Positions 104 to 61,847 of a stretch of 64,000 nucleotides of DNA are shown here, piece by piece; position 1 is the stretch's first letter, and each line of letters starts with the position of its first letter. The stretch is from NCBI GenBank assembly GCA_046350755.1, contig JAXLZV010000001.1, positions 160,216 through 224,215 on the forward strand, given 5' to 3'. The notes under the pieces are model-generated. The model was not told the DNA's origin. It made no database searches and saw nothing but the letters and a program-made list of their open reading frames with translations. Made by a program: the position numbers and the translations under genes. This DNA is from Candidatus Saccharimonadota bacterium. GTDB lineage: Bacteria; Patescibacteriota; Saccharimonadia; CAILAD01; GCA-016700035.

Positions 104-126
104 CGAAAAAAATAGCGCGCCGCGCT
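104..126 (-). terminator. Candidate rho-independent terminator downstream of the ClpB-like gene
   Basis: On the minus strand there is a GC-rich palindrome AGCGC-GGC-GCGCT (plus 114..126) followed by a T7 run (plus A-run 105..112). Confidence 0.35.
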
Positions 127-180
127 TATCAACACCTAATTTACCATATTTATTCCCTGGTAGCAATGATCGCTAGGTGA

Positions 181-2610
181 CTATTCCGGGTGACTCGGTG
201 GAGCCGATTCCAAATCTTTCCGATCCAATGTAATTGCCTGTCCAGCCTGGATCTCACCGGTTAAGAGCCCTTTACTCAGGCGATCTTCGACCAACTTCTG
301 AAGAGTCCGGCGCATCGGCCGAGCTCCCATCCGCGGGTCATTACCGACTTCCACGATATAGGCCTTGGCGGCATCCGTCAGCTCAATTGAGATTTGTTGG
401 GCTTCTAGGTTGTGGTTGAGTGAACGCATCATAATGGTGACCACCTGCACCAGCTCATCTGGCGTCAGTGGGCGGAATGTAACGATTTCATCAAACCGGT
501 TGAGAAGCTCGGGCTTGAAGATCTGCTCAGATATCAGTTTATCAATAAACTTATCATGCAGCTGTGCCAGGTCTTGCCCGGCCCCAACAGCCTGACGAAT
601 ATCATCGGCTAGCGCATTCGAGGTCAGGATAATAATGCAATCCTTAAAACTCACCGGCTTGCCGGCAGTGTCAGTAAGGCGAGCTTCATCGAGCAGTTGC
701 AAGATGAGATTCAGGATATCAGGGTGGGCCTTTTCGATTTCATCCAATAACACCACGCTATATGGTTGCGTCCGAATATGCTCGAGAAAACTCGACCCCG
801 CCCCAGACTCGGAAGCCGCGGCTAGCAAACGACTGACATCACTGGCCTGCTGATACTCAGACATATCCAGCCGAATCATCCTTTCTTCACCTCCAAAGTA
901 GACCGCCGCCAAGGATTTTGCGAGCTCAGTTTTCCCAACACCGGTTGGACCAAGAAACAGAAAACTGCCAATCGGCCGACGGCTGTCTTTGACCCCCGCC
1001 CGGGCCCGCCGCAGAGCTCCAGCCACCGCGCTGACAGCCTGGGTTTGGTTAATCATCCGCTGATGAATTAGCTCCTCTAGATTCAATAGCTGCTCAGCTT
1101 CGGCCTTGTTGGCAGTGCCGGTCTTCACCCCCGTACTGGTTTCGATAGCAGCCTGCACAGAACGCTCCGTCACAACTCCACCTTCGGCGTGCGCAAACGC
1201 CATTCGCAAGAGATCGATCGCCGCACCCGGCTGCTGCTTGGTGGTGACATAACGATCCGAGAGATTAGCGGTTTCTTGCAGGGCTCGTAAAGTCGACCCA
1301 ACACCAGTCTGCGTTTCAAGCTCAAGGGCGACATCTTCGAGAACGCGGATCACCCCGAGTCGATCGATTTCGGTTACCGTTAGCTTCGTCATCTGACCGA
1401 TAAGATTAGGTCGTAACTGCGCAAAATGCGTCCAGTCTTCTTCGGTAAAAGCAAAAATCATCGGCAATCGCGTTTGCTGCAAGATAGGCGCCAGAATCTC
1501 ACTAATATCAACCGCGCCGGGCTTATTCATAAAGAAGTCTTGGGCATCATCGAAAAACAAGACGACATTTTTTGCCCGTACCGCATCCCCCATCACTTCG
1601 TTGATGATCCGCTCAATCGGTATCTCGGGGGTGGCTGCCGATAGCAAGGCGCTGGCCGAGAGACGCATCACCTTCCGATACGTCAGTCGGCCCATGTCTA
1701 CCCGATTTAAGATTTGGTCAGTAAAGGCATACACTAATGTACTTTTTCCTGAGCCGGTTGGTCCCACCAGGGCTGCCGCTGGGTGAGCAGGCTGGTTCAA
1801 GGCTGACACCAAGCCATCAATCACCTCTTCCCGACCGAGGTATGAAAAAATTGGTGCACCGGCTTCTACCTCATCGCTCATGTTTACCCCAAAGCGATCA
1901 AGAAAATTGGTGTAACCAGCCGCAAAATCACGACCAATGCCACCGTAATTCTTGCGCTCATGTTTTTCGAGCCGGTCATGAATCAAATGCTCGAGCCAGA
2001 CCAAGCCTTCGCTCAGATCTTGCCTGGTAATGTGAGCCGCCGCCAAGAATGGTTGCTGTGCTTCGATCAACACGGAGCAAGCAATCATCAAGCTGCCGGC
2101 CGTGATATGACGCTGACCAGCCGTACGAGCTTCTTCAAGTGCAACCGCATAGATTTGATCAACGTTCAGTTTCGCCATCTGGTTATCAATCACCTCCAGC
2201 GGCAACCCAAGATGGCTGACGAGAAAGCCCGTTTGCCAGTGCTGACGTAAGACTGCCCAGAGGCCGGTTGCGTCACTGACTCGCTTGAGTGGTCGAACCA
2301 GATCGGCCGAGAGTAAATCTGACAGGTTGGTCGAGCCATCATTGATCGGCGTTTGACCAGCAAACTGCCGCATACCCCACTTCGCCCAAAATGCCAACGG
2401 GGCGAGTGAGAGGCCAACTATCGCCAACCAAGCGCCGACTCGTACTAGGCCAAACAGTCCGGCCAATACTGCCCCCACGAGACTTACTAATGCTAGGCCG
2501 ACGATAAGATTCTGACGCCACTTCTGCACAAACCAAGCTGTACCGGCGATCCGCGTCGCCCGTCGACTGGGCTGAAATGATAACGACGATTGTGGCCCGA
2601 CTGGATTCAT
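181..2610 (-). CDS. Atypical membrane-anchored ClpA/ClpB-family double AAA+ ATPase with a degenerate D1 Walker B
   Basis: Two TM-like hydrophobic helices sit at the N-terminus (LIVGLALVSLVGAVLAGLFGLVRV, AWLAIVGLSLAPLAFWAKW). D1 has a P-loop GPTGSGKST but its Walker B reads LFFDDAQD, that is DD rather than DE. D2 is canonical: [28 protein letters not shown], the sensor-2 GARPMRR and a ClpB-type C-terminus. The likely start is the ATG at 2610, overlapping the upstream stop as ATGA; the ORF-track start at 2835 is probably an over-extension. Confidence 0.75.
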   Translation of the reverse strand: MNPVGPQSSLSFQPSRRATRIAGTAWFVQKWRQNLIVGLALVSLVGAVLAGLFGLVRVGAWLAIVGLSLAPLAFWAKWGMRQFAGQTPINDGSTNLSDLLSADLVRPLKRVSDATGLWAVLRQHWQTGFLVSHLGLPLEVIDNQMAKLNVDQIYAVALEEARTAGQRHITAGSLMIACSVLIEAQQPFLAAAHITRQDLSEGLVWLEHLIHDRLEKHERKNYGGIGRDFAAGYTNFLDRFGVNMSDEVEAGAPIFSYLGREEVIDGLVSALNQPAHPAAALVGPTGSGKSTLVYAFTDQILNRVDMGRLTYRKVMRLSASALLSAATPEIPIERIINEVMGDAVRAKNVVLFFDDAQDFFMNKPGAVDISEILAPILQQTRLPMIFAFTEEDWTHFAQLRPNLIGQMTKLTVTEIDRLGVIRVLEDVALELETQTGVGSTLRALQETANLSDRYVTTKQQPGAAIDLLRMAFAHAEGGVVTERSVQAAIETSTGVKTGTANKAEAEQLLNLEELIHQRMINQTQAVSAVAGALRRARAGVKDSRRPIGSFLFLGPTGVGKTELAKSLAAVYFGGEERMIRLDMSEYQQASDVSRLLAAASESGAGSSFLEHIRTQPYSVVLLDEIEKAHPDILNLILQLLDEARLTDTAGKPVSFKDCIIILTSNALADDIRQAVGAGQDLAQLHDKFIDKLISEQIFKPELLNRFDEIVTFRPLTPDELVQVVTIMMRSLNHNLEAQQISIELTDAAKAYIVEVGNDPRMGARPMRRTLQKLVEDRLSKGLLTGEIQAGQAITLDRKDLESAPPSHPE

Positions 2611-2969
2611 AGCACCGCTCCATAGACAAACAGCCCAGCTATCAGTGCCGGTAACAATGGCCAAGCAACGAATAACGTAACGCCAGCCAGTATCATGACC
2701 ACAGACAGCAAAGCCCAGAACGCCACGATCATCAAGCGGACACTGAAGCCAACTAATCTGGCCACAAAGTTCATCACTAGGGCTCGCAGCATCTGATCGA
2801 GCCCCCGAGCTCCCGACACACGATCTTCCTTCCAAGGCGCAAACAAGGTTCGAAGCATCTGTCGAACCGAGAACACATTATAGAGCCGCACTAAGCGTCG
2901 CTTGAGTACTTCAAGAACGTGGAGCCAGCCCCAGCCATACCACCAGGAGACGGCGTCAATAATAGTCAT
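2607..2969 (-). CDS. Small hydrophobic membrane protein, translationally coupled to the ClpB-like ATPase
   Basis: A 120-aa ORF with a C-terminal hydrophobic stretch (LMIVAFWALLSVVMILAGVTLFVAWPLLPALIAGLFVYGAV). Its TGA stop overlaps the ATG of the downstream ATPase (ATGA). No recognisable motif. Confidence 0.45.
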   Translation of the reverse strand: MTIIDAVSWWYGWGWLHVLEVLKRRLVRLYNVFSVRQMLRTLFAPWKEDRVSGARGLDQMLRALVMNFVARLVGFSVRLMIVAFWALLSVVMILAGVTLFVAWPLLPALIAGLFVYGAVL

Positions 2970-3014
2970 GCTTATATGGTAGCAACCTGGGAGTAGTGTG
3001 GCAAACTTGCGACG

Positions 3015-5414: not shown

Positions 5415-5554
5415 ATCCCTAGATTACCATAAGTTGAGTCAATATTCTGTAGACAGATTAACCAATTAGCTTCTTCAATCAGTCATCATGCTTATTGTAT
5501 TTATCTATATTTATGGTAATATATACTTACTGTTCCCCAGAGAAAGGGCTCGAC

Positions 5555-6190
5555 ATGAGCCGCACCTTGCAACGTATCATCGAGTGGCTACTGACCGCCA
5601 TCTTACTCATCCCAGCCCTTGTCATCTCAGCAATTGCTGCCATAGTAATCATGCTTGTCGACGGTCACTCACCGTTTTTTCATCAAGAACGCATCGGTAA
5701 AAACGGCTCTCCTTTCCCATGCTTCAAACTGCAGACTATGCGACCAAAGCAGGATGGCGAGCATTACCACAATCCTGATGATGACGCCCGACGCGTTACT
5801 CCTCTCGGAGCATGCTTACGCGCTCACGCCATCGATGAACTCCCACAGTTTATCAATATCCTCCGGGGCGAGATGAGGCTCTTCGGACCTCGTCCGTTGG
5901 CAGTTGAAACAATTCACGAAATCCGCGAGTCGTGCACTGACGATCTGGCAATCTTCACCCAATGGAGCGCCCGGCGTCAAACACTTTCGCCCGGCCTGTG
6001 CGGCTGGTGGCAAGTCCACACCAGTGACAACCGCAGTCTGCACTACGACAATGAGTACTATGACGGCCTGACACTGCGTCAGTTCTGTAAGATGGTCGGC
6101 CTGTCATTCAAGATCTTGCCGTCCGGGAAAAGCTCCCTGCACGCCTGCAGCGAGCCAAGTAGCCCCCTGCCCACCGACCTCAGTCCATGA
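5555..6190 (+). CDS. Polyprenyl-phosphate sugar phosphotransferase (bacterial sugar transferase family, WbaP/PglC-like)
   Basis: An N-terminal TM helix is followed by FKLQTMRP (the KFRSM-like motif), LPQFINILRGEMRLFGPRPL and PGLCGWWQV. The preferred start is MSRTLQRIIEW at 5555; the ORF-track start at 5495 is an AT-rich over-extension. Confidence 0.8.
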   Translation: MSRTLQRIIEWLLTAILLIPALVISAIAAIVIMLVDGHSPFFHQERIGKNGSPFPCFKLQTMRPKQDGEHYHNPDDDARRVTPLGACLRAHAIDELPQFINILRGEMRLFGPRPLAVETIHEIRESCTDDLAIFTQWSARRQTLSPGLCGWWQVHTSDNRSLHYDNEYYDGLTLRQFCKMVGLSFKILPSGKSSLHACSEPSSPLPTDLSP

Positions 6191-17423: not shown

Positions 17424-18710
17424 TTAGCTTTTTGCCTGCTCACACAGCCAGTCAACGGCTTTTTGGGTGACCATCCGGTTGGCTAGATCATTCTTAAATT
17501 CATCCGCGTCGAGCTGCTTCAAAATCTGCGGATCAGAGTAGCTCATGCGCATTTTCTCGAGATTATCCTGCACTTCGTCGACTGTTACATTAAACTTCTG
17601 CTTCTCAATGATATCGCGAATTATCAGACCAATCGAAATCCGACGACGGGCCTCAACATGCAACTCGTCATGAAATGACTTCTCGTCCTTACCTTGTACT
17701 TTCAGCCAATCCTCGAGTTTCATGCCACTCGACGCAATCTGGTGCTCATACTGGTGCTCGAGTTCGTGCGCCTGATCATGCTCCAGCATTGGGCTGACTT
17801 CGAGCTTGATTTGCTTCATTGCTTCTTCGAGTACAGCGTTTTCGTACTCTTTCTTATAGTCGTCGTCTTTTCCGGCCACAAGATTCTTGCGTACATCATC
17901 CTTGAGCGCTTGGAGTGAATCCATCTGGGCAACAGTTTTTGCAAACGAGTCATCGAGTTTCGGCAGGTTCTTCTCTCGCACTTCATGAACCTTGGCAGTA
18001 AATGTCACGACCTTGCCTGCTAGATCTTCGGCGTGATACTCCTTGGGGAAGGTAATATCAAAAGTCTTTTCGTCACCTTTTTTCATGCCGATCAACTCAT
18101 CCTCGTAGCCTGGAATAAACTTACCGCTCCCCAGTTCGAGTAATGTGTTCTGTCCGGCCGCGCCCTCAACTGGTGACCCCTCGCGCACGCCTTCAAAGTC
18201 GAAGCGGACTTCATCGCCCTGCTTCGCCGCGCGATCAACCGTTATTGGCTCAGCTGCCTGACGCTGGAGTTCTTTCAGGGCCTCATCGACTTCCTTATCG
18301 GTGACTTTCGGGGCATCGTACTTCACTTTGAGCTTCTTGTAGTCAAAGTCGATCGTCGGCACAACCGCAATCTTGGCTGTGTACTCCATCTCATCAAACG
18401 GCACAAACTTCGTCACGTCGACCTTTGGCTCGGCCAGGGCTCGGATTTCATGCCCCTTGATAGCTTCAGAATAAGTTGCTGCCAAAACCTTCTCAACAAC
18501 TTCGAGCTGGAATTTCGCTTGATCAACATGACGTTCGGCAATATCATCGGGTGCTTTGCCTGGCCGGAAACCTGGTACTTTCAGCCCCTTCTTCATCTGC
18601 TCAAGGACAGCCTGCTTAGCGCTCGCTAGCTCGGCTTTGGTGACGACGACGGTCAGCTCGAGCTCAGCTTTGTCGCGTTTGGTAATGGTAGCTTTAGTCA
18701 TAATATCCAA
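17424..18710 (-). CDS. tig: Trigger factor
   Basis: Length and domain layout (ribosome-binding N-domain, FKBP-like PPIase with GKFIPGYEDELIGMKKGD, C-domain); lies upstream of clpP. Confidence 0.9.
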   Translation of the reverse strand: MDIMTKATITKRDKAELELTVVVTKAELASAKQAVLEQMKKGLKVPGFRPGKAPDDIAERHVDQAKFQLEVVEKVLAATYSEAIKGHEIRALAEPKVDVTKFVPFDEMEYTAKIAVVPTIDFDYKKLKVKYDAPKVTDKEVDEALKELQRQAAEPITVDRAAKQGDEVRFDFEGVREGSPVEGAAGQNTLLELGSGKFIPGYEDELIGMKKGDEKTFDITFPKEYHAEDLAGKVVTFTAKVHEVREKNLPKLDDSFAKTVAQMDSLQALKDDVRKNLVAGKDDDYKKEYENAVLEEAMKQIKLEVSPMLEHDQAHELEHQYEHQIASSGMKLEDWLKVQGKDEKSFHDELHVEARRRISIGLIIRDIIEKQKFNVTVDEVQDNLEKMRMSYSDPQILKQLDADEFKNDLANRMVTQKAVDWLCEQAKS

Positions 18711-18861
18711 ATTTTACCAAACTGTGGATAAAAAAACTAGCACTCTGTGATGTGGAGTGCTAATAGTTTAAAAAGTGCAGCTTACAGGATTACTACGGGT
18801 GCACTCGCGGCGTGCTCGGGATACTATACTGCGCGCTAAGGTTCGAATCTCGTTATGCAAA

Positions 18862-28807: not shown

Positions 28808-31288
28808 CTACTTCACGCTGGCAACGCGATTACTAACCTCTAGCTTTACTTCGCCCTTGATAGCTTTCACGGTTACCACATCCCCCTCAACGATATATTC
28901 ATGTAGGAGCGCTTCGGCAAGCGGATCCTCCACGAGTGTTTGGATAGCTCGACGCATTGGCCGCGCGCCGTTATTTACGTCGTACCCCTTCTTTATCAGC
29001 AGGGCCTTCAAGCTCGGGGCGAATTTCAGTACCACGTCTTTTTCGCGCAGTCGCTTACCGAGATCCTTGAGCTGCAGATCGATAATCGAGCGAACATCTA
29101 TCTTTGAAAGAGCCTTAAAGATCACGATATGATCGACTCGGTTTAAGAATTCTGGACGGAAAGTGCGCTTAAGCTCCTGCTGAATGGTGCTCTTAGTGGC
29201 AATATGCAGTCGTTCGAGTTCTTTTTGCTCATCGGCAGTATCGGTTGTAAAGCCAATTTTTGCCTCTTGGTAGAGCGATTTAGCCCCAACATTACTAGTC
29301 ATAATGATGATAGTATTACGAAAATCAATCGCTCGACCTTTCGCATCGGTCAGCTGCCCATCTTCGAGGATCTGCAACAGCATATTGAAGACGTCCGGGT
29401 GAGCCTTTTCGATCTCGTCAAACAAAATCAGGCTGTATGGACGACGGCGAACTTGCTCAGTCAGCTGGCCGGCATCTTCGTAACCGACATAACCAGCCGG
29501 CGCCCCAACCAGGCGGGACACGTTGTGCCGCTCCATAAACTCAGACATATCGACCTTAATCAGTGCATCTTTATCATGAAAAACTTCTTGCGCCAGCACG
29601 CGGGCTAGTTCAGTCTTGCCAACTCCGGTAGGCCCGAGAAAAATGAATGAGCCAATCGGCCGATCGGCGTGCGCAATGCCGGTACGGCTGCGACGAATCG
29701 CCTTTGCAATCGACTCAACTGCTTCATCTTGCCCAATAACGTGACGCTTCATGGTTTTATCAAGCCGCTTGAGCTGCTCAGTCTCAATCTTTACCAGACG
29801 GGTCAACGGTATGCCGGTAGTCTGCGAGATAACCCGAGCGATTTGCTCCTGATCAACGGTAATCAGCTTACGTGAGGTATCGACCTTTTCTTGAGCCGCA
29901 ATCTTCTCCTCGAGGACACTAGCCTCCGCTTTCAAACGGGCGGCGTATTCAAAGTCTTGATTGTAAACTGCCTCTTCGATCTGTTCGTTAACATCCTCGA
30001 GTCGTACTTGTAATACCTTTAATTTCTTGGAAGTACCACCCCGTTCAATCCGAGCTAGCGAGGCAGCTTCGTCAATCAGGTCAATCGCTTTATCCGGCAA
30101 GAATCGATCCGAGATATACCGCTTGGCAAGCTTAGCTGCCTCCTCAATCGCCTCGTCGGTAATCACGACTTGATGGTGATCTTCGTAGCGAGACTTGAGA
30201 CCCTTGAGCACCTCAATCGTCTCATCGACCGTCGCTTCTGGCACAATCACCGGCTGGAAACGACGCTCCAGGGCGGCATCTTTTTCGATATGCTTACGAT
30301 ATTCGTCCAGCGTAGTAGCGCCGATAACCTGCACCATTCCCCGCGATAGAGCGGGTTTCAAAATATTGGCTGCATCGATAGCTCCCTCAGCCGAGCCAGC
30401 GCCCACGACGGTATGAAGCTCATCGATAAAGAGAATGATATCTTTATTATCAGTTACCTCTTCGATCAGCTTTTTCAAGCGTTCTTCGAATTCACCACGA
30501 TACTTCGTACCGGCGATAACGGTCGCCATATCCAGCATCACAATACGCTTACCATGCAGCACATCGGGCACTTCTTCATTGATTATTCTTTCCGCCAAAC
30601 CTTCAACAATCGCCGTCTTGCCCACACCCGGCTCACCGATGAGGACAGGGTTATTTTTCTGACGACGATTCAGAATCGAAATCATCCGATCAAGCTGCAC
30701 CTTACGACCAACCATCGGATCGAGCTCGCCAGCTTTGGCTTTTTCGGTCAGATCGATGCCAAAGTGGTCAAGAGCCGGTGTATCGCTATCTCGATTCTTG
30801 CGCCGGCCTGCTCGCTTGTCGTTATCACCATAGACTGGTGTCTGAGCATTTAAATATTGTTCGAGTTCAGAGCGAACATTATTTGGATTAACAGAAATCT
30901 CCCGCAACAATACATTCGCGCGCGCATTCTTCTGCGTCAGAATCGCGTAGAGTAAGTGCTCCGTTCCCGCATACGGCTGGCCGAATTCTTGCGCGATGCG
31001 TAAGGATAGGGCGATGGTTTTTTTGGCAGTCTGTGAGAGAGACTGCAGAGTATGCGTCGACACGACACCAGTTGGCGCCAGGGTCAGCTCAAGTTTATCA
31101 AGCGTTACACCTGACTGAGCCAGGATCTTTGAGCCGATCGAACCCTGGGTCTTGAGAACTCCAAGTAGCAGATGCTCAGTACCGACATAGACCGAGCCGA
31201 GCCCGGCAGCAATCATACTGGCATGCTCAAGACTGCGTTTAGCATTCTCAGTGAAACGGTCAAATTGTGGGGGCAGATTCTGATCCAT
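28808..31288 (-). CDS. clpC: ATP-dependent Clp protease ATP-binding subunit ClpC
   Basis: Two Clp-N repeats, D1 ([23 protein letters not shown]), a UVR-like linker, D2 ([25 protein letters not shown]) and GARPMRR. Confidence 0.92.
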
Positions 31289-31348: not shown

Positions 31349-32578
31349 CTAAGCCGACTCTTCTGTGTCGGACGGCGTGGCAGCAATTTCAGAACTTTCA
31401 GGAGTATCAGATTCTTCAGATGTATCGGTTTCGGCCGACTCACCGGCGGACGGCTTCTCAACCGCGGCGATGAGCTCATCTTCAGGATTTATCTTCTTTT
31501 TGGGTGTCTCAGCGGCAGCTTCCGCTACTTCTTCGATCCCAGCAGCGTCCGAACCATCGATGTCGATATTCCAGTCAGTCAGCTTGGCAGCCAAGCGGAC
31601 ATTCTGTCCAGAGCGGCCGATAGCTAAGGAAAGCTGATCCTCAGGGACTTTCACTGATGCACGATGCTCAGTTTCATCAACTGTCACTTCGGCGATATTT
31701 TTGGCTGGTGAGAGAGCGTTGGCGATATAGTGCTTAATATCCTCGTCAAAGGGAATAATATCGATTTTCTCATCGCCGATATTGGCCATCACAGCCTGAA
31801 CACGGGTCCCGCGTCCACCGACAAACGTACCAACGGGATCAACGCCTTCGACATTGCTTTTGACTGCTATCTTCGTACGCGCACCAGCCTCACGAGCGAT
31901 ATTGACGATTTCAACATTACCGGTGGCAATCTCTGGTACTTCCATCTCAAACAGTCGCCGAATCAGATTCGGGTGACTGCGGCTGACAACAATCTGTGGA
32001 CCCTTGAGGGTATTCTCAACGCGCACAACATAAACCTTCACGCGCTGACCCGGGTAGTACCGCTCGCCGTGGATTTGTTCAGATGGGAACATGATGCCAG
32101 TCGTGCGACCGAGATCAACGAAGACATTGCCGTGCTCGACGCGCTGAACTGAGCCATTCATGATGGTATCTTCTTTATCCTGATACTCGTTATAAATCAC
32201 CTCACGTTCGGCTTCGCGAATGCGCTGGATGATAACCTGCTTGGCGGTTTGGGCAGCTACCCGACCAAAGTCCTTATTCACATCTTCGTATTCAACCGTC
32301 TCGCCGACTGCGGCCGACTTGCGAATAACCTGCGCATCACCTACCGAAATCTCTAAATGAGGATTCTCGACCTCAGCCACAACTTCCTTCGTAATAAAGA
32401 TACGTGGATCGCCGGTCGATGGGTCAACCTCAACTCGTACTTCCTGATCCTTATCACCGAAGTCTTTTTTATACGCGGCAATGAGGGCCATCTCAATCGT
32501 CTCCATGACGATGTCCTTAGAGATGCCTTTTTCTTCGCAAATTTGCTCGATAGCTGAAATGAATTGATTCTGTTGCAT
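31349..32578 (-). CDS. nusA: Transcription termination/antitermination factor NusA
   Basis: An N-terminal NusA domain, S1 and two KH domains, plus an acidic C-terminal tail. Confidence 0.9.
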   Translation of the reverse strand: MQQNQFISAIEQICEEKGISKDIVMETIEMALIAAYKKDFGDKDQEVRVEVDPSTGDPRIFITKEVVAEVENPHLEISVGDAQVIRKSAAVGETVEYEDVNKDFGRVAAQTAKQVIIQRIREAEREVIYNEYQDKEDTIMNGSVQRVEHGNVFVDLGRTTGIMFPSEQIHGERYYPGQRVKVYVVRVENTLKGPQIVVSRSHPNLIRRLFEMEVPEIATGNVEIVNIAREAGARTKIAVKSNVEGVDPVGTFVGGRGTRVQAVMANIGDEKIDIIPFDEDIKHYIANALSPAKNIAEVTVDETEHRASVKVPEDQLSLAIGRSGQNVRLAAKLTDWNIDIDGSDAAGIEEVAEAAAETPKKKINPEDELIAAVEKPSAGESAETDTSEESDTPESSEIAATPSDTEESA

Positions 32579-32752
32579 GATTCTTATATTCCTAATGTTA
32601 TTCTACTGTGTCTAGCTCGTGCTGTGGGCGATTTTGGGTCGAAAAAAGCCGCTCGCTGTTAATTATGTAGCGACCGACTCTGACAACAGCTCGATGTATG
32701 CTCACTAGTATACGGTCTGACAATTAGCACTGTCAAGTGGCGAGTGCCAATT

Positions 32753-41800: not shown

Positions 41801-42489
41801 GCATCACCGGTAACGACCTTGCCGAGTCCCAGCTCCTGGGCAAGCTTTCGTAAGCCAGCGTTTACCTTATCCTGCGGCTCCCAGCCAATATGTGGCTGCA
41901 TTTCCAGATAATAATTATCCTTCCCGAAAGTCTGTGCATACCACTCGGCCGCCAGCTTGGCTTCTGCATAATTATCCGCTAGCAAATGGGTGCCAACCTC
42001 GCCACCAATACAACCGGTAAGGGCAATGAGGCCTTCGTGATACTTCTCGATCAGCTCACGATCGATCCGTGGCTTGTAGTAAAAGCCCTCGAGGTTTGCG
42101 ATAGTAGACAGCTGCATAAGATTCTTGTAGCCTGTTTCATTCATGGCTAGAAGCGTGAGGTGATAGGGACTGCGGTCTTCGCGCGTACTCTTATCAGTGT
42201 GTTTGCGTGGTGCGACGTAGGCCTCCATGCCAATAATCGGCTTAATATCGCGCTTCTTGCACTGTGTGTAGAACTCAATTGCTCCCGACAACGTACCGTG
42301 ATCGGTAATCGCGACTGCTGTTTGGCCCAGCTCTTGTACCCAATCCAGCATATCGGGAATCTTCTGTAAGCCATCGAGTAGCGAATAATGGGTGTGATTA
42401 TGTAGGTGTACAAAAGGTACCGACTGTTTTTTCACAGTCGTAGCCTTCCCCTGCTCTGTCGCCGCCGCACGTGTCATATCACTTACCAT
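38869..42489 (-). CDS. dnaE: DNA polymerase III alpha subunit (DnaE)
   Basis: N-terminal PHP domain (HLHNHTHYSLLDG), the polymerase core (Pol III alpha) and an OB fold at the C-terminus; 1206 aa. Confidence 0.95.
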   Translation of the reverse strand: MVSDMTRAAATEQGKATTVKKQSVPFVHLHNHTHYSLLDGLQKIPDMLDWVQELGQTAVAITDHGTLSGAIEFYTQCKKRDIKPIIGMEAYVAPRKHTDKSTREDRSPYHLTLLAMNETGYKNLMQLSTIANLEGFYYKPRIDRELIEKYHEGLIALTGCIGGEVGTHLLADNYAEAKLAAEWYAQTFGKDNYYLEMQPHIGWEPQDKVNAGLRKLAQELGLGKVVTGDAHYSKESQHYAHDILLCVQTGSTIEDPNRFKLDQDLSIHSGDSIAERFPDDLDALENTVKIAERCNLEIELGKILIPKFEVPEGRTEREYLRELVYQGAMWRYGNIPKEDISHYGEKTARPKLPKEVVERIEYELEVIARMGYDGYFLIVADLLNWSKNQGIVCGPGRGSAAGSIVAYVTNITDLDPLKYELLFERFLNPDRISMPDIDMDFADDRREEVIAYATEKYGQEKVAQIITFGVMAARNAVRDTGRVLAMPYGEVDAIAKLIPAPIQGRHIPLKKSIVDDPDLKKEYDTNPRTKRLIDIAMQLEGTIRNAGTHAAGVVIAPEPLVEYVPLTRASKGGVSTQYIGTTMEDLGLLKFDFLGLSNLTIIKNALRIIKRVYGKTIDVGEIPIDDTATYELLARGDTTGVFQLESAGMKRYIRELKPDRFEDIIAMVALYRPGPMQWIEDFIGRKHHPERIHFDHPKMEAALKETYGIIVYQEQVMQISKDLCGFTGGQADTLRKGIGKKIPEVIAKMKKDFIEGAIKHSDADRSFVEQLWGSIEDFAAYCFNKSHAACYALIAVQTAYLKAHYPAAFMAALLTSDHGNLDRVAIEVSECRKMGMEVLPPDVNESFAEFAVVKDSSGEGKDVIRFGLAAIKNVGVGPVNAILAAREEGGSFTSIEDFVRRVDAREINKKAIEALMKVGAFDSIGDRATLFANLDKIVIYMSKVQKNALSGQIDIFGSMGATEDVPSLPLDAPSEILGEREFLQWEKELLGLYLSSHPLREVEAWLREKTTPAVALKPGMDGEKVTVGGVITTVRKIVTKKGDAMAFVGLETIQGDIELIVFPRAYDATPDLWVADQLVVVQGKVNAKDRDGKTTEDIKVMADKAKKIDASVLKHYIATGEALVPELDPSAAQEAARIVITLQDLKDQVVLLRLKTVLQAAPGQTETMVQLASTGQKIRLPFKVAVSEKLKSQLADVVAEDALLVE

Positions 42490-42604
42490 TGTACGCCAAG
42501 AACGCGAGCGTTTTAATCTTGACTTTTATGCTCATTTATGATATCGTGCGCGAGTTCTATGTAATCGCATGGATAACCTTCACAACCTAGAGAAAGAGGA
42601 CGCC

Positions 42605-43288
42605 ATGAAGTCTTCAGGTGAGTTGCTCCGAGAATATCTCGAGCAGCAGCCCGAGAAGATCAAGGATGTGCGCAATTTCTGTAATGTTGCTAGCAAGACC
42701 GTGAGATCGTGGCTCAAGGGTACCAACCCGAAGGGCATCACACAGTGTAGACTCTTCGTCTACCTACTCGAACAGCAGCTAGCGCCAGCAGAGTTGCTCA
42801 AGACCGAACCCGACATCATTCTCCTTGCCGTTCTGGTGGCTCACGACTATGTGAGCTCTCAAGAGGCCATGAAGGTGATGGGCTCTACCTCCAAGTCTGA
42901 TCAGCAGCTCTGGGGTTGGATCCGTAGCGACACACAGCCGCTGCCCAAAGCCCTAGAGCTCCTGCAAGACTGGCTGGATGCAGTCGATGGCGATCGCTCA
43001 CGAAGACTGATCGCCGCAGAATTTCTCGGTACGACAACCGTGGCGGAGCAATCCCCCGCAAACGTCATTCCGTTGTCGTTCGACTCGAGCGACCAGATCA
43101 TCGAGAATTTGGCAGCATTGTTGTCAGCGGTCTACCCACTCGCCAAGCGCGTGGAAGCCGATGACTTCAGTAATGCCGACCGTGAACGCCTTCGGGCGCT
43201 GATCGGTGAAGACCAGTTCTTCAAGCTCACGAACGCCCTGACCCGCCTCTCCGGCACCAAGGCACGTTCGTACACCCAGTCCATTTAA
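42605..43288 (+). CDS. Hypothetical protein with a putative N-terminal helix-turn-helix
   Basis: An AAAGAGGA RBS lies 6 nt before the ATG at 42605 (alternative ATG at 42569). EYLEQQPEKIKDVRNFCNVASKTVRSWLKG resembles an XRE-type HTH. The C-terminus is unknown. Confidence 0.5.
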   Translation: MKSSGELLREYLEQQPEKIKDVRNFCNVASKTVRSWLKGTNPKGITQCRLFVYLLEQQLAPAELLKTEPDIILLAVLVAHDYVSSQEAMKVMGSTSKSDQQLWGWIRSDTQPLPKALELLQDWLDAVDGDRSRRLIAAEFLGTTTVAEQSPANVIPLSFDSSDQIIENLAALLSAVYPLAKRVEADDFSNADRERLRALIGEDQFFKLTNALTRLSGTKARSYTQSI

Positions 43289-43311
43289 CCCAACACCCCA
43301 AGGAGTACGGC

Positions 43312-45009
43312 ATGACCCGCCGTCGACGTCCCCGTCCAACCCAGGGTGGCCGTAAGGCCCCCGCGACCCCGGCGACACCTCAGCCCATTCGGGATAAGGT
43401 GTCGTTCAACCAGGGCAAGGTCATCATGCACCTTGCCAAGTCGACCTACACCACGTTGATCCAGGTGATCGCTGAGTGCGTCCAGAACGCACTCGACGCC
43501 GGTGCAACCGTCATCGACATCGCTGTCGATGAGAAGCGGCGCAGCATCGTCGTTGCCGACAACGGCGGTGGCGTGACTCTGGAGAAGTTCCACGAGGCCC
43601 TTGGCTCCGTTGGGCATGGGATCAAGGATCCCGGCTCACTCGGACGCTTCGGCCTCGGCCTCATCTCGCCGCTCGATAAGTGCGACTACTACACCTTCAG
43701 CTCCTGGCTTCCCGGCGAGTCGAAGGGGTGGTGCTGGACCTTCCGGGCCGGTGAGATCGAGGCGATGGCCGACGAAGTCGACATCCCTCGGGCTGGTGCC
43801 AAGCGTCACGCTGGCGCTGAGTGGAATACCATCGTGCGCATCCACCGCTACACCTCCGACTCGCAGACGGCCGCAATGACGGCTGAACGCGTCGAGGAAT
43901 TCGTGCAGTCCAAGCTGGGACCCACCATGCGCAAGCGCGGTGTGACCTGCCGGCTGCACTTCGGTGGCCCAGACGGCGAGGTCGTCCAGAAGACGATCAA
44001 GCCGACCGACTTCACCGGTGAGCCTTTCGAGATCACGATCTACACCGAGCCCGACGCGGGCGAAGTGGAGTTCGAGCTCTACCGCGCCCGCAAGACGACC
44101 AAGGGTCGTCAGGGCATGGTGAGTCTCTCGGAAGCGGATGCCCCATACCCGATCACCTTCACCGAGTTCAAGCGGCAGGCTCACGCCTTCCTCGGCGACG
44201 ACGTGAAGAAGGCTCTCAGCTCCGGCTACTTTGAGGGCATCATTCGAGCCAAGAAGGTGGAGCTGCATCCCAACCGCCGCAAGTTCGTCTGGAATGACGC
44301 GGTTGTCGGGCTCTGCATCGCCATCGAACAGTGGTTCGAAGACATCGGGCACAAGCTCTACACCGATGAGCAGGTCCAGGAAGAGGAGGCTCGCCTCCAG
44401 CGCCTGGGCGTGCAGACGCTCGACCGGCTGAAGGATCTCCTCAAGCTGGAAGAGTCGGAACACCTGCGCAAGATCATCGAAAGCCTGCATGTCGGCTCGA
44501 TCGGCAGTGGGCACAACGAGCTCCCCAGCTCGGGGGACATGGATGAGCGTGGTTTGCGCTCTGGTCAGGGCGGCACGGGCAAGCCCCGCAACCGCAATGG
44601 TCAGACCAAGCCACGTGATCCGTCGAAGCCCAAGCAGCCCGAACGGACCGGCGACAAGCCGGGTGTCTCGGTTGGCCCCGAGGGCCAGCACCGCAAGGTG
44701 GTGCGCGACAGCTCGACCGGTATCTCCATCTGCCACGAGATCCTGCCCGGTTCCGACCGACTGTGGGAGATCGACGCAGCGTCGGCGATGATCTACATCA
44801 ACGTGCGTCACCCGGTGTTCTTGCTCGTCGAGCACGCCGACACGTACGTCTTGCAGCTGCAGGAGTGGATCGTGCTGCAGGCGCTGTCGTTGCTGATGTT
44901 CCCGGTCGACAGCCGAGAGCTCCTCCACGACTACGCAGACAGCTACGCTCGCGAGTTCGTGGTGGTCTCGATCCTCGGATCGAGACAGCGCCGCCGCGGT
45001 AGCGTCTGA
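43312..45009 (+). CDS. GHKL/Bergerat-fold ATPase (MORC / MutL-N / HATPase_c_3-like) with an unknown C-terminal region
   Basis: AAGGAG RBS. The N-box is IAECVQNALDAGAT, the G1 box is VADNGGGVT and the G2 box is LGRFGLGLISP. Downstream is a Gly/Lys/Pro/Arg-rich low-complexity linker, then a C-terminal domain of unknown function. Confidence 0.7.
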   Translation: MTRRRRPRPTQGGRKAPATPATPQPIRDKVSFNQGKVIMHLAKSTYTTLIQVIAECVQNALDAGATVIDIAVDEKRRSIVVADNGGGVTLEKFHEALGSVGHGIKDPGSLGRFGLGLISPLDKCDYYTFSSWLPGESKGWCWTFRAGEIEAMADEVDIPRAGAKRHAGAEWNTIVRIHRYTSDSQTAAMTAERVEEFVQSKLGPTMRKRGVTCRLHFGGPDGEVVQKTIKPTDFTGEPFEITIYTEPDAGEVEFELYRARKTTKGRQGMVSLSEADAPYPITFTEFKRQAHAFLGDDVKKALSSGYFEGIIRAKKVELHPNRRKFVWNDAVVGLCIAIEQWFEDIGHKLYTDEQVQEEEARLQRLGVQTLDRLKDLLKLEESEHLRKIIESLHVGSIGSGHNELPSSGDMDERGLRSGQGGTGKPRNRNGQTKPRDPSKPKQPERTGDKPGVSVGPEGQHRKVVRDSSTGISICHEILPGSDRLWEIDAASAMIYINVRHPVFLLVEHADTYVLQLQEWIVLQALSLLMFPVDSRELLHDYADSYAREFVVVSILGSRQRRRGSV

Positions 45010-45030
45010 TCCTTTCTCTCTAGTTGTTTC

Positions 45031-45062
45031 GCCGGAGCCCTTTGGGCTCCGGTTTTCTTTTT
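45031..45062 (+). terminator. Strong rho-independent terminator after the GHKL ATPase gene
   Basis: GCCGGAGCCC-TTT-GGGCTCCGG followed by TTTTCTTTTT. Confidence 0.65.
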
Positions 45063-45081
45063 ATTCAGCGTCATGAATCTA

Positions 45082-45110
45082 TTGACTTTAAACCCTTATG
45101 ATTGTAATAT
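45082..45110 (+). promoter_or_regulatory. Candidate sigma-70 promoter for the 45155..45835 gene
   Basis: TTGACT, a 17-nt spacer and TAATAT, with an AAGGAG RBS before the GTG at 45155. Confidence 0.4.
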
Positions 45111-45154
45111 ATTTTTACTGTTCGCCCGAACATTCGTACCTTACAAGGAGCACT

Positions 45155-45835
45155 GTGGATACACCAACCGAACCCACCAAACGACAGCCGGGAGCCGCAT
45201 CGACGCGCTCCTGCAGCCTGAACGAAGCTCTGTCGAGCTTCTATGCCCTCAAGGGATGGCTCAGACGGCGCCAGCTCGATGACTGGCTGCCACAGCTCGC
45301 CATCGTCTGGACCGACCGCAACGGCCATGCCGTTCTGGCAATCCGTGGCGACAACGCCATGGGCCCTGCACCGCAGGATGCCAATCAGGCGGCCCAAGCC
45401 GCATTGCGCCCGCACTGCATCGAGCAGGGAGCTGCCACCATTCAGACAGCCGCCAAGCAGGTGCTGGGGGCAGTTGGGGTCTACGGACGCAGTCCAGCCG
45501 ACAACCATCTCGTCGCCTGCCTGGCAGCGGAGTTGGTCTTCGAGCCAGATATGCCAGCAGAACTCCTTGAGGTCTGCGTCGAGGAGCGCTTCCAGCAAGA
45601 CGGCCTCGAAGTCCCAGACGTGCCATTGGCGGTCTCGCCAGGTGTGTCATCATTCGCAGGTTTGCAAGCGGTGATGGCTGGAGCTGGCGTGTTGAGGCTC
45701 TTGCCTGGCCAAACCTACGGCTGGCCGAGCCAGCTCGATCCGCCGCTGACGCAACCACAAGCCGGTGTCAGACTCATCACCGAGCGTGACATCCCCGGCC
45801 ACGTACCGGGGCATGGTGGTGGACTCTTCGGCTGA
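45155..45835 (+). CDS. Hypothetical GC-rich protein (last gene of island 2)
   Basis: A GTG start 5 nt after the AAGGAG RBS; Ala/Gly/Pro-rich with no recognisable motif. The ORF-track start at 45098 runs into the AT-rich promoter and is unlikely. Confidence 0.45.
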   Translation: MDTPTEPTKRQPGAASTRSCSLNEALSSFYALKGWLRRRQLDDWLPQLAIVWTDRNGHAVLAIRGDNAMGPAPQDANQAAQAALRPHCIEQGAATIQTAAKQVLGAVGVYGRSPADNHLVACLAAELVFEPDMPAELLEVCVEERFQQDGLEVPDVPLAVSPGVSSFAGLQAVMAGAGVLRLLPGQTYGWPSQLDPPLTQPQAGVRLITERDIPGHVPGHGGGLFG

Positions 45836-45904
45836 TCATTCTCACACAACCTCTCAGGGCGGGTACCATCACGGTACTCGCCCCTCATTATGTCTTTAAT
45901 AAAC

Positions 45905-46198
45905 TTATTTTACGGTTTGCGTGGTGGCGTTTTGCTCAATTGAGCGGAAGAAGTCACCGATATATGGCAGACCACCAAAAACTGTCACCGCCCACCCTAA
46001 AGCGACGATAATAAGTGCCACACCGATGGTCAGACCAATACCGCGATAAATGCCAGCTCGAAAGTTTAACCAAGCAAAACGCCAGCGGTCATTGAGTAAT
46101 TCCATAAACTCTTCGGCACCTACGAGGCTAGCCGCTGCCCGACTGGCATCGAGCTGCTGTTCGCGCGTCGATTGTGGCTTACTTTTTCGCGCCGCCAC
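45905..46198 (-). CDS. Small membrane protein, hypothetical
   Basis: A 97-aa ORF with two hydrophobic helices, overlapping the upstream YtxH-like gene by 20 nt. Confidence 0.35.
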   Translation of the reverse strand: MAARKSKPQSTREQQLDASRAAASLVGAEEFMELLNDRWRFAWLNFRAGIYRGIGLTIGVALIIVALGWAVTVFGGLPYIGDFFRSIEQNATTQTVK

Positions 46199-57020: not shown

Positions 57021-57094
57021 TGGAGGCACCTACCGGAATTGAACCGGTGTACGCGGTTTTGCAGACCGCTGCGTAACCACTCCGCCAAGGTGCC
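57021..57094 (-). tRNA. tRNA-Cys (anticodon GCA)
   Basis: Anticodon loop CUGCAAA, T-loop GGTTCAATTCC and a U73 discriminator (a Cys identity element) followed by CCA. Confidence 0.85.
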
Positions 57095-57132
57095 GAAGCG
57101 CGTTGACATTATACCTTATCAGGTGGGAAACA

Positions 57133-57161
57133 TTGAAATTTATCTGAAAATCGGCTACTAT
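57133..57161 (+). promoter_or_regulatory. Candidate promoter for the tRNA-Phe/tRNA-Gly operon
   Basis: TTGAAA, a 17-nt spacer and TACTAT, about 30 nt upstream of tRNA-Phe. Confidence 0.4.
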
Positions 57162-57190
57162 TATGCAGTTCGCACCTTCTGTTTTGACGA

Positions 57191-57266
57191 GGCACCTTAG
57201 CTCAGTTGGTAGAGCGACGGCCTGAAGAGCCGTGCGTCGTAGGTTCGATTCCTACAGGTGCCACCA
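57191..57266 (+). tRNA. tRNA-Phe (anticodon GAA)
   Basis: GGCACCTTAGCTCAGTTGGTAGAGC..., anticodon loop CUGAAGA and a 3' ACCA. Confidence 0.9.
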
Positions 57267-57280
57267 GAATATTTTTGCAC

Positions 57281-57356
57281 GCGGGTGTAGCTCAGCTGAT
57301 AGAGCGCTTCCTTGCCAAGGAAGAGGCCCCGGGTTTGAGTCCCGGTACCCGCACCA
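57281..57356 (+). tRNA. tRNA-Gly (anticodon GCC)
   Basis: GCGGGTGTAGCTCAGCTGATAGAGC..., anticodon loop UUGCCAA and a 3' ACCA. Confidence 0.9.
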
Positions 57357-57369
57357 GTTTTTTTCATTA

Positions 57370-57393
57370 GACCCTGCGCGGGTCTTTTTATTT
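57370..57393 (+). terminator. Rho-independent terminator after the tRNA-Phe/Gly pair
   Basis: GACCC-TGCGC-GGGTC followed by TTTTTATTT. Confidence 0.6.
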
Positions 57394-57407
57394 GCTATAC
57401 TCCTGCT

Positions 57408-57860: not shown

Positions 57861-57864
57861 TCAC

Positions 57865-58329: not shown

Positions 58330-58375
58330 AATCTTATTCGCAACTTTTGCAACTTTTATCTATACTTAAGCACAA

Positions 58376-59356: not shown

Positions 59357-59374
59357 GCCAACAACCGAGACTAT

Positions 59375-60397: not shown

Positions 60398-60466
60398 AAT
60401 ACTTATCCTTAGTATATCAGCCAGCAAATTTGCTTAGAACCTTAAGTAGAACAGGGTTTAAATATA

Positions 60467-60495: not shown

Positions 60496-60513
60496 ATGAG
60501 CCTCACCTTGAGA

Positions 60514-60640: not shown

Positions 60641-60645
60641 TGAAA

Positions 60646-61846: not shown

Positions 61847-61847
61847 C

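What the first reader, a model, noticed from the sequence alone, without database searches (positions are those of the whole stretch)
181..2969. Membrane-anchored ClpB/ClpC-like unfoldase with a degenerate D1 Walker B, translationally coupled to a small membrane protein
This double-AAA+ protein starts with two TM-like helices instead of the usual Clp-N repeats. D1 retains the P-loop but reads DD where the catalytic DE should be, which predicts an ATP-binding, hydrolysis-poor ring. D2 is canonical. Its ATG overlaps the stop of a 120-aa hydrophobic ORF (ATGA), which implies a stoichiometric membrane partner. A genuine ClpC sits elsewhere in the window (28808..31288), so this is an extra specialised paralog, perhaps a membrane-protein extractase. 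It does not match an architecture I know by name.
Basis: seen in the sequence. Interest (0 to 1): 0.55.

Follow-up and report, generated by a model that had tools for sequence, protein, structure and literature searches.

The report
Membrane-anchored Clp-like ATPase with small partner
This is a two-gene operon found across the ultrasmall Patescibacteria (CPR): a small membrane protein coupled to a membrane-tethered ClpB/ClpC-like ATPase that keeps one working motor ring but has lost the tyrosine loops such machines normally use to pull on proteins, so it probably works in an undescribed way.

Summary
On the minus strand, a 120-aa hydrophobic ORF (2607..2969) overlaps by ATGA an 809-aa double-AAA+ gene (181..2610). 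That gene has an N-terminal TM hairpin and reads DD at the D1 Walker B.

The interpretation needs correcting:
- The TM hairpin is added in front of a degenerate Clp_N domain; it does not replace it.
- DD is not a family trait, because relatives read DE, DN or PD.
- The universal D1 defects are loss of both arginine fingers and of the pore-loop tyrosine (0 of 33 members).
- D2 keeps every catalytic motif (33 of 33), but its GYVG pore loop is shortened and has no tyrosine (0 of 33).
- There is no M-domain and no ClpP-docking loop.

The small gene sits directly upstream in all 18 loci checked (Saccharimonadia, Parcubacteria, Falkowbacteria, CPR2). Its family has about 2,150 representatives at 50% identity. 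It has no Pfam model, no relative among solved structures, and I found no paper on it.

The apparent Southlakia epibionticum orthologs (SEML1_0701/0700) are both non-essential in published Tn-seq and both show a late growth defect.

Best reading: a CPR-wide, ClpP- and DnaK-independent, D2-driven membrane AAA+ machine with a fixed membrane subunit. It probably does not thread substrates in the canonical way. It is a new variant of the Hsp100 family, and its function is untested.

The parts
2976..3004 (-). Promoter-like site (TTGCCA, 17 nt spacer, TG-TACCAT) just upstream of the small ORF. The -10 element ends 6-7 nt before the ATG, so the mRNA may be leaderless.
   Evidence: Weak evidence: the scan found 4 sites in the region against 4.2 expected by chance.
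2607..2969 (-). Small membrane protein, 120 aa. It has an N-terminal cytoplasmic helical part (WWYGWGW, LFAPWKED, ARLVGFSVR motifs), a long helix that runs into the first TM segment, a WP turn, and a second TM segment.
   Evidence: AF2 pLDDT is 94, with helices 2-11, 13-32, 35-40, 57-102 and 105-119. The family has 2,150 representatives. No Pfam, NCBIfam or PDB relative was found.
2664..2732 (-). First TM segment of the small protein (aa 80-102).
2610..2657 (-). Second TM segment of the small protein (aa 105-120), after the conserved WPLLP turn.
2607..2621 (-). Translational-coupling junction: GGAG (2618..2621), a 7-nt spacer, then ATGA (ATG 2610..2608 and TGA 2609..2607).
   Evidence: The junction is tight in all related loci.
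181..2610 (-). Membrane-anchored Hsp100/Clp-type double AAA+ ATPase, 809 aa (NCBI MFO0955091.1, 'AAA family ATPase').
2383..2511 (-). N-terminal TM hairpin: TM1 is aa 34-56 (nt 2443..2511) and TM2 is aa 58-76 (nt 2383..2439). It follows a basic, conserved segment LSFxxSRRxTRIAGTAW (nt 2533..2583). The inferred topology places both the N-terminus and the ATPase body in the cytoplasm.
1999..2286 (-). Degenerate Clp_N-like domain (about aa 109-204).
   Evidence: hhalign of the family profile against canonical Clp_N gives probability 96%, E 2.9e-9. Pfam Clp_N scores 22.2 bits in the Falkowbacteria homolog. The AF2 helical domain 88-222 has pLDDT 83-93.
1909..1947 (-). Family-specific conserved motif YGGIGRDFAAGYT (aa 222-234) in a flexible linker. 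Its function is unknown.
1186..1842 (-). D1 AAA+ module, degenerate. Walker A GPTGSGKS is at nt 1741..1764. Walker B VVLFFDD is at 1546..1566. The pore-loop equivalent SAATPEIPIE (no Tyr) is at 1612..1641. The Arg-finger equivalent LIGQMTK (no Arg) is at 1384..1404.
229..978 (-). D2 AAA+ module plus D2-small domain, catalytically complete. Walker A is at nt 928..951, Walker B DE at 739..756, sensor-1 TSN at 616..627, Arg finger NRFD at 490..507 and sensor-2 GARPMRR at 307..327. The pore loop LAAASESGAGSSF (787..825) is shortened and lacks GYVG. The ClpP-loop region (562..609) lacks IGF/VGF.
114..135 (-). Terminator-like GC hairpin followed by a T run, 45-67 nt after the TAG stop (181..183).

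Best explanation
Window 181..2969 (-) is a bicistronic operon for a two-component membrane AAA+ machine that is conserved across Patescibacteria (CPR).

Anatomy, shown by the analyses here:
- The large subunit is an Hsp100/Clp derivative. In order it has a basic N-terminus, a TM hairpin, a degenerate Clp_N domain, a degenerate D1, no M-domain, D2, and the D2-small domain.
- D1 keeps the P-loop but has no Arg fingers and no pore-loop Tyr, and its Walker B varies across the family.
- D2 has a fully conserved ATPase site, a shortened pore loop without tyrosine, and no ClpP-docking loop.

Mechanism, inferred:
- D1 binds nucleotide without turning it over. Together with the TM hairpins it holds a hexamer at the cytoplasmic face of the membrane, with the N-domain/D1 side facing the bilayer.
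- D2 is the only motor.
- The 120-aa protein is made in fixed proportion by translational coupling and serves as a permanent membrane subunit or adaptor. It probably docks through its cytoplasmic helices on the Clp_N-like domain, through TM-TM contacts, or both.
- The complex remodels membrane-associated clients, or its own partner, by ATP-driven conformational change. It does this independently of ClpP (no proteolysis) and of DnaK (no M-domain), and not by the canonical tyrosine-paddle threading of ClpB, ClpC or FtsH.
For: Census of 33 family members:
- D2 Walker A GPTGVGKT is present in 33 of 33, and so are Walker B DE, sensor-1 TSN, the Arg finger NR and sensor-2 GAR.
- The D2 GYVG tyrosine is present in 0 of 33, and the loop is 3-6 residues shorter.
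- A D1 Arg finger is present in 0 of 33, and a D1 pore-loop aromatic in 0 of 33.
- The D1 P-loop glycines are invariant across deep divergence.

The distance from the D1 lid to the D2 Walker A is 93-101 residues, against 154-157 in ClpC and 221 in a ClpB-type protein. The ClpP-loop region carries a deletion.

The partner gene lies immediately upstream on the same strand in the window, L001-L004, L007, L012, L016 and L081-L093. The partner family has 2,150 representatives at 50% identity, of uniform length near 120 aa, and a confident fold with pLDDT 94.

Tn-seq in Southlakia epibionticum (PMC10633639 Table S1) calls both SEML1_0700 and SEML1_0701 NE, NE, GD. Normalised reads fall from 4124 to 1638 for SEML1_0700 and from 258 to 51 for SEML1_0701. 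FtsH and DnaK are essential in the same organism, so the pair is not a substitute for them.
Against: - No physical interaction, oligomeric state, ATPase activity or client has been measured, and no multimer prediction could be run.
- Loss of the aromatic pore-loop residue argues against canonical threading but does not prove its absence. Nine of 33 members keep a Tyr two to three residues further along (LGYL), and the alignment of this loop is ambiguous.
- The shared Tn-seq phenotype could come from polarity of insertions in 0701 on 0700.
- Orthology of SEML1_0700/0701 rests on matching domain coordinates and gene arrangement in the supplement, not on a sequence alignment.
- TM helices were judged from hydropathy and AF2, not from a dedicated predictor.
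- The AF2 model of the large subunit is only moderate (pLDDT 74, pTM 0.55).
Confidence: 0.5

Rival explanations
1. Membrane-protein extractase. The hexamer threads membrane or tail-anchored proteins out of the bilayer through its central channel in the D1-to-D2 direction, like Msp1/ATAD1 or the AAA ring of FtsH. The small protein acts as substrate receptor.
For: The N-terminal TM hairpin places the N-domain/D1 entry face against the membrane. D2 is a complete ATPase. The overall fold is that of threading Hsp100s. The partner is conserved.
Against: Neither ring has the pore-loop-1 aromatic residue that established threading AAA+ proteins use (0 of 33 in D1, 0 of 33 at the GYVG position in D2). 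The D2 loop is shortened. FtsH is present and essential in Southlakia, so a general extraction and quality-control role is already covered.
Confidence: 0.2
2. Torsin-like switch acting on its own partner. The small protein oligomer is the client rather than an adaptor, for example a membrane pore, gate or membrane-shaping assembly. D2 ATP hydrolysis opens, closes or disassembles it.
For: The D2-type AAA+ ring has no aromatic pore loop and is membrane-associated with an obligate membrane cofactor. This resembles torsin with LAP1/LULL1 (my own knowledge of that system). The coupling is tight. The partner has a long helical hairpin fold that suits oligomerisation. Both proteins have minimal extracytoplasmic loops.
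Confidence: 0.2
3. Membrane-tethered ClpB-type disaggregase that rescues aggregated proteins at the membrane under heat or envelope stress, together with DnaK.
For: The best NCBIfam match for D2 is ClpB. In Falkowbacteria-type loci the pair lies next to a CIRCE-controlled canonical Clp gene.
Against: There is no M-domain, which is the element that couples ClpB to DnaK. There are no pore-loop tyrosines. In those loci the CIRCE element and the TTGACA belong to the neighbouring gene's side. No CIRCE element is found near the pair in the window.
Confidence: 0.07
4. Decaying or non-functional paralog, or a gene-calling artefact.
For: D1 is degenerate. All curated NCBIfam scores are far below their cut-offs.
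Against: D2 catalytic motifs are invariant across 33 deeply diverged members. The pair is conserved across CPR classes, with about 2,150 partner representatives. There is a Tn-seq fitness effect. NCBI's gene models are identical to mine.
Confidence: 0.02

Closest known systems
ClpA / ClpC (class I Clp/Hsp100 unfoldases that feed ClpP)
   Same: Both have Clp_N, D1, D2 and D2-small in one chain. ClpC structures are the best sequence and fold matches in the PDB. The short linker without an M-domain resembles ClpA: the ClpA model aligns in a single stretch, residues 143-795.
   Different: This protein has an N-terminal TM hairpin and no IGF/VGF ClpP loop. It has no D1 Arg fingers and no pore-loop tyrosine in either ring. 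It scores 350 bits against a cut-off of 993 for the ClpA model.
ClpB / Hsp104 disaggregases
   Same: Both are double-ring Hsp100s that do not dock ClpP. The D2 region matches TIGR03346.
   Different: There is no coiled-coil M-domain (93 residues against 221 between the D1 lid and the D2 Walker A). It scores 403 bits against a cut-off of 1232. It has no pore-loop tyrosines, it is membrane-anchored, and it has an obligate small partner.
Torsin with LAP1/LULL1 (eukaryotic Clp-D2-like AAA+ with membrane cofactors; from my own knowledge)
   Same: Both have a Clp-D2-clade ATPase that lacks the aromatic pore loop, is membrane-associated, and is paired with a membrane-spanning partner.
   Different: Torsin has a single ring, sits in the ER lumen, lacks its own Arg finger, and has a cofactor with an AAA-like fold. 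Here D2 has its own Arg finger, there is an extra degenerate D1, and the partner is a 120-aa helical hairpin. No homology of the partners was detected.
FtsH (with HflKC), the bacterial membrane AAA+ protease
   Same: Both have two N-terminal TM helices that tether an AAA+ hexamer to the cytoplasmic face. Both are accompanied by membrane partner proteins.
   Different: FtsH has one AAA ring with an aromatic pore loop and a fused metalloprotease. This protein has neither. FtsH coexists with the apparent Southlakia orthologs of this pair and is essential there.
Msp1 / ATAD1 (membrane-anchored extractase; from my own knowledge and PMC12793716)
   Same: Both have an N-terminal TM anchor and an AAA+ hexamer at the cytosolic membrane face.
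   Different: Msp1 has a single ring with aromatic pore loops that are essential for extraction. This protein has a Clp-type double ring without them.
PTEX HSP101 with EXP2 (Plasmodium Hsp100 docked on a membrane pore; PMC7355975)
   Same: Both pair an Hsp100-type ATPase functionally with a membrane protein.
   Different: HSP101 is soluble, has tyrosine pore loops, and pushes substrates out of its D2 face into the pore. Here the membrane anchor is on the N-terminal/D1 side and the loops lack tyrosine.

Membership tests
Clp/Hsp100 class I AAA+ (ClpA/B/C superfamily) | Two AAA+ modules (D1 and D2) plus a C-terminal D2-small domain in one polypeptide | tested here: met
   Pfam gives AAA_2 at 545-709 (E 8e-48), ClpB_D2-small at 715-794 (E 2e-23), AAA_lid_9 at 421-491 and D1 P-loop hits. 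The top Foldseek matches are ClpC and ClpB.
Clp/Hsp100 class I AAA+ (ClpA/B/C superfamily) | N-terminal Clp_N repeat domain | tested here: met
   Pfam does not detect it on this protein. The family profile against a canonical Clp_N profile gives hhalign probability 96%, E 2.9e-9. Pfam Clp_N scores 22.2 bits (cut-off 20.7) in the L081 homolog.
Clp/Hsp100 class I AAA+ (ClpA/B/C superfamily) | Aromatic pore-loop-1 residue in D1 (KYRGEFE) and D2 (GYVG) | tested here: not met
   D1 reads SAATPEIPIE. D2 reads LAAASESGAGSSF and is 3 residues shorter. The count is 0 of 33 members at either position.
Clp/Hsp100 class I AAA+ (ClpA/B/C superfamily) | D1 trans-acting arginine fingers (ERRF) | tested here: not met
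   This protein reads IGQM. None of 33 family members has an Arg at either position.
ClpB (TIGR03346 equivalog) | Score above the curated cut-off, and a coiled-coil M-domain between D1 and D2 | tested here: not met
   The score is 403 bits against a cut-off of 1232, and only D2 aligns. The D1 lid to D2 Walker A distance is 93 residues, against 221 in a ClpB-type neighbour.
ClpA / ClpC (ClpP-coupled unfoldases) | IGF/VGF-type ClpP-docking loop in D2, and a score above the curated cut-off | tested here: not met
   The region reads AVGAGQD and carries a deletion of about 10 residues. The window's own ClpC has IGF at residue 678. TIGR02639 scores 350 bits against a cut-off of 993.
FtsH-type membrane AAA+ protease | N-terminal TM helices, a single AAA module and a C-terminal M41 peptidase | tested here: not met
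   The TM hairpin is present, but no peptidase domain is found and the AAA modules are Clp-type.
Torsin-like AAA+ | A single Clp-D2-like ring that lacks both the aromatic pore loop and its own Arg finger, activated by a membrane cofactor | tested here: not met
   The pore loop lacks an aromatic residue and a membrane partner is present. However, the D2 Arg finger (NRFD) is conserved in 33 of 33 members and there is a second ring. This is an analogy only.
Patescibacterial 'small membrane protein + TM-anchored Clp' pair (family defined here) | A gene of about 120 aa with the WWY / LF.PW / SR..GF..R / WP motifs immediately upstream of a TM-anchored double-AAA+ gene, on the same strand | tested here: met
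   This arrangement holds in the window and in 17 further distinct loci. The Southlakia pair SEML1_0701/0700 shows the same gene arrangement; the motifs could not be checked there because no sequence was available.

The most novel reading that the evidence does not exclude
The pair is a CPR-wide, previously unrecognised type of membrane AAA+ machine. An Hsp100 ring has given up polypeptide threading. Its D2 ATP hydrolysis instead drives the TM hairpins of itself and of its 120-aa partner. A 6+6 assembly would give up to 24 TM helices. This would make it an ATP-powered membrane gate, transporter or membrane-remodelling device, possibly tied to the envelope or the epibiotic lifestyle of these bacteria.
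Probability: 0.2. Interest if true: 0.85.

Novelty: new variant of a known kind. Interest (0 to 1): 0.62.

Why it matters
Patescibacteria make up a large share of bacterial diversity, have tiny genomes, and are mostly made of unexplained genes. This is a conserved two-gene module that databases label only 'AAA family ATPase', 'ClpC' or 'hypothetical protein'.

For AAA+ mechanism, it is a natural experiment. A double-ring Hsp100 keeps a perfectly conserved D2 motor but has lost the substrate-gripping tyrosines in both rings. It has also lost the D1 arginine fingers, the M-domain and the ClpP loop, and it has gained a membrane anchor and an obligate membrane subunit. Working out what it does would show whether Hsp100 rings can work without threading.

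For CPR biology, it is directly testable. Southlakia epibionticum is genetically tractable, and published Tn-seq already shows a fitness cost for the apparent orthologs of both genes.

Tried and rejected
- A third homolog search, using a profile of the N-terminus plus D1, was swamped by canonical ClpB/ClpC. Family size is therefore inferred from the partner protein.
- The afdb50 fold library was unavailable.
- PADLOC gave only generic AAA_2-type hits such as DolB and PDC-M37B, and nothing for the partner. A defence-system reading was therefore rejected.
- Heat-shock regulation was tested through CIRCE elements. There is none near the pair in the window. In Falkowbacteria-type loci, the CIRCE element and its TTGACA belong to the divergent canonical Clp gene.
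- Eight literature searches found no description of a membrane-anchored Clp/Hsp100 or of this family in Patescibacteria. The TM7x transcriptome paper mentions only a generic 'clp protease'.
- The longer ORF that starts at TTG 2835 (884 aa) was rejected. It overlaps the small ORF, and both the homologs and NCBI start at ATG 2610.
Full report
**Observation**

On the minus strand, a 120-aa ORF (2607..2969) ends in a TGA that overlaps the ATG (2610..2608) of a large ORF ending at 181. A GGAG lies 7 nt upstream of that ATG. The 809-aa and 120-aa products are exactly NCBI's models: MFO0955091.1 'AAA family ATPase' and MFO0955092.1 'hypothetical protein U0526_00930', from a Candidatus Saccharibacteria MAG. 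A promoter-like site precedes the small ORF (2976..3004), and a GC hairpin with a T run follows the large one (114..135). This fits a bicistronic operon, although the promoter scan is at chance level.

Hydropathy gives two strong N-terminal TM-like segments in the large protein (aa 34-56 and 58-76). The C-terminal half of the small protein is hydrophobic. AlphaFold2 models these as helices with pLDDT 82-90 in the large protein, and the small protein has pLDDT 94 overall. D1 reads GPTGSGKS and VVLFFDD, and D2 reads GPTGVGKT and VVLLDE. The ClpC at 28808..31288 (-) is genuine and has the [16 protein letters not shown] and IGF motifs.

**Anatomy of the large protein**

- Pfam finds AAA_2 (545-709), ClpB_D2-small (715-794), AAA_lid_9 (421-491) and weak D1 P-loop hits, but no Clp_N.
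- All curated NCBIfam models score far below their cut-offs: ClpB 403 against 1232, ClpA 350 against 993, ClpV 294 against 885.
- A profile of residues 84-222 from 23 family members matches a profile of canonical Clp_N domains (hhalign probability 96%, E 2.9e-9). Falkowbacteria-type homologs reach Pfam's Clp_N threshold (22.2 bits).
- The TM hairpin is therefore added in front of a degenerate Clp_N domain and does not replace it.
- HMMER alignment to B. subtilis ClpC and a MAFFT alignment with four canonical Clp proteins show four changes:
  - The D1 pore-loop Tyr is replaced (KYRGEFE becomes TPEIPIE).
  - Both D1 arginine fingers are gone (ERRF becomes IGQM).
  - The D2 GYVG loop is shortened and has no tyrosine.
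  - The ClpP-docking IGF/VGF loop is deleted.
- The distance from the D1 lid to the D2 Walker A is 93 residues, against 154-157 in ClpC and 221 in a ClpB-type protein. There is therefore no M-domain.

**The family**

A homolog search finds only 15 full-length clusters (38-98% identity, 803-816 aa, none with Pfam Clp_N). Scores then drop sharply to ordinary ClpB/ClpC, which match D2 only. A genome scan places close relatives in Saccharimonadales. More distant relatives occur in Parcubacteria, other Patescibacteria, and a few MAGs labelled Gammaproteobacteria.

Census across 33 members:

| Feature | Members with the feature |
|---|---|
| D2 Walker A GPTGVGKT | 33 of 33 |
| D2 Walker B DE | 33 of 33 |
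| D2 sensor-1 TSN | 33 of 33 |
| D2 Arg finger NR | 33 of 33 |
| D2 sensor-2 GAR | 33 of 33 |
| D2 GYVG tyrosine | 0 of 33 |
| D1 Arg finger | 0 of 33 |
| D1 pore-loop aromatic | 0 of 33 |

The D1 Walker B reads DE in 9 members, DD in 11 and DN in 8. The other 5 read PD, RN or NN. The D1 P-loop glycines are invariant even among the most diverged members. The defining traits are a nucleotide-binding but catalytically crippled D1, and a fully competent D2 without the gripping tyrosine. All members have N-terminal TM-like peaks.

**The partner**

The small protein aligns with ORFs found immediately upstream of the ATPase gene in every locus examined:
- L001-L004, L007, L012 and L016
- L081-L086
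- L087-L090
- L091-L093

In every case it is on the same strand, either overlapping or at most 11 nt away. Shared motifs are WWY..GW, LF.PW, SR..GF..R and a WP turn between two TM segments.

A profile search of 1.84 billion representatives finds 2,150 members at E <= 1e-3 and 1,475 at E <= 1e-10, almost all 115-135 aa. The sources that name an organism give Saccharibacteria, CPR2, Falkowbacteria and 'Patescibacteria group'. The family has no Pfam, NCBIfam or PADLOC model and no sequence or fold relative among solved structures.

**Experimental data from the literature**

In the Tn-seq table of Wang et al. 2023 (PMC10633639, Table S1), Southlakia epibionticum carries two adjacent minus-strand genes:
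- SEML1_0701 is a hypothetical protein of 384 bp.
- SEML1_0700 is an 'AAA family ATPase' of 2583 bp. It has Pfam AAA_2 at 544-706 and D2-small at 713-792, has no Clp_N, and is flagged 'core family'.

The two genes overlap by 22 nt, and both are called NE, NE, GD over three passages. Normalised reads fall from 4124 to 2517 to 1638 for SEML1_0700, and from 258 to 157 to 51 for SEML1_0701. In the same organism FtsH and DnaK are essential, while ClpP and the canonical ClpC are not.

I infer orthology from the matching domain coordinates and gene arrangement, not from an alignment. Polarity could explain the shared phenotype. The main text of that paper does not discuss these genes. Eight full-text searches found no description of a membrane-anchored Clp/Hsp100.

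**Mechanism**

The following is shown: the domain order, the motif states, the conserved coupling to the partner, the phyletic breadth and the Tn-seq fitness effect.

The following is inferred:
- The basic N-terminus and the hairpin topology put the ATPase body in the cytoplasm, with the N-domain/D1 face towards the membrane.
- D1, with its P-loop kept and its Arg fingers lost, acts as a nucleotide-stabilised assembly ring. Inactive rings of NSF, p97 and Pex1/6 do the same (my own knowledge).
- D2 is the sole motor.
- The machine works without ClpP (no docking loop) and without DnaK coupling (no M-domain).
- Both rings lack the aromatic pore-loop residue that known threading AAA+ proteins need, so the output is probably ATP-driven remodelling rather than processive threading.
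- The small protein is a stoichiometric membrane subunit or adaptor, plausibly bound by the Clp_N-like domain. ClpS, MecA and VipB bind the N-domains of ClpA, ClpC and ClpV in a comparable way (my own knowledge).

The rivals are a conventional extractase, a torsin-like switch acting on the partner itself, a membrane-tethered disaggregase, and a decaying paralog. Each is weighed in its own section. The conservation data essentially exclude the decaying paralog.

**Comparison and novelty**

The protein is a member of the Clp/Hsp100 superfamily by fold and domain content. It fails the defining tests for ClpB, ClpA/ClpC, FtsH and torsin. It is best described as a new, uncharacterised variant of a known kind, with an obligate partner from a family that no database describes. 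I give it moderately high interest. The loss of both tyrosine loops beside a perfectly conserved D2 site would surprise AAA+ specialists, and the system can be tested directly in a cultivable Saccharibacterium.

Noticed in passing
window 18737-18763 and 32724-32750: Two CIRCE-like inverted repeats (TTAGCACTC-N9-GAGTGCTAA with 1 and 2 mismatches; 0.02 expected by chance). One lies just upstream of the trigger factor gene (17424..18710, -). The other lies upstream of nusA (31349..32578, -), which precedes clpC. This suggests an HrcA-type regulon that does not include the membrane-Clp pair.
   Followed up: partly
L081:4790-5010, with the same region in L083, L087, L088 and L090: In Falkowbacteria-type genomes the pair lies divergently next to a canonical 878-aa Clp ATPase. 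The intergenic region holds a perfect CIRCE element and a TTGACA on that gene's strand. A Glycos_transf_4 (MraY/WecA-like) gene, often fused or adjacent to QueH, follows the membrane-Clp gene.
   Followed up: partly
window 5495-6190 (+); L091:9013-10635; L004:8160-9574; Southlakia SEML1_0702/0703: Envelope-precursor genes recur near the pair: polyprenyl glycosylphosphotransferase (Bac_transf), MraZ/RsmH and MurT/GatD. This may be a weak functional hint or may simply reflect small genomes. It was not tested statistically.
   Followed up: no
L006:107-2914: One distant homolog carries an N-terminal zinc-ribbon-like motif (CPQCHGSG...CDNCQGMG) ahead of the TM region. It recalls the zinc fingers of ClpE, ClpX or DnaJ.
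   Followed up: no
window 1909-1947 (aa 222-234 of the ATPase): The family-specific motif YGGIGRDFAAGYT has invariant G223, G224, R227, D228 and G232 among close relatives, and reads 'GGMxRA' in distant ones. It sits in a low-confidence loop between the Clp_N-like domain and D1. Its role is unknown.
   Followed up: partly
window 42000-46000: A GC-rich stretch (0.57-0.61 against about 0.52 elsewhere) holds a 565-aa GHKL-type ATPase (HATPase_c_3; 43312..45009, +). The flanking ORFs have no Pfam hit. It may be an acquired island.
   Followed up: no
window 2969-3004: The -10-like TACCAT ends 6-7 nt before the small ORF's ATG, and no Shine-Dalgarno sequence is visible. The operon's first gene may therefore be translated from a leaderless mRNA.
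   Followed up: no
window 57021-63773: Eight of the window's nine tRNA genes lie in its last 7 kb (Cys, Phe, Gly, Val, Ala, Val, Leu, Leu).
   Followed up: no
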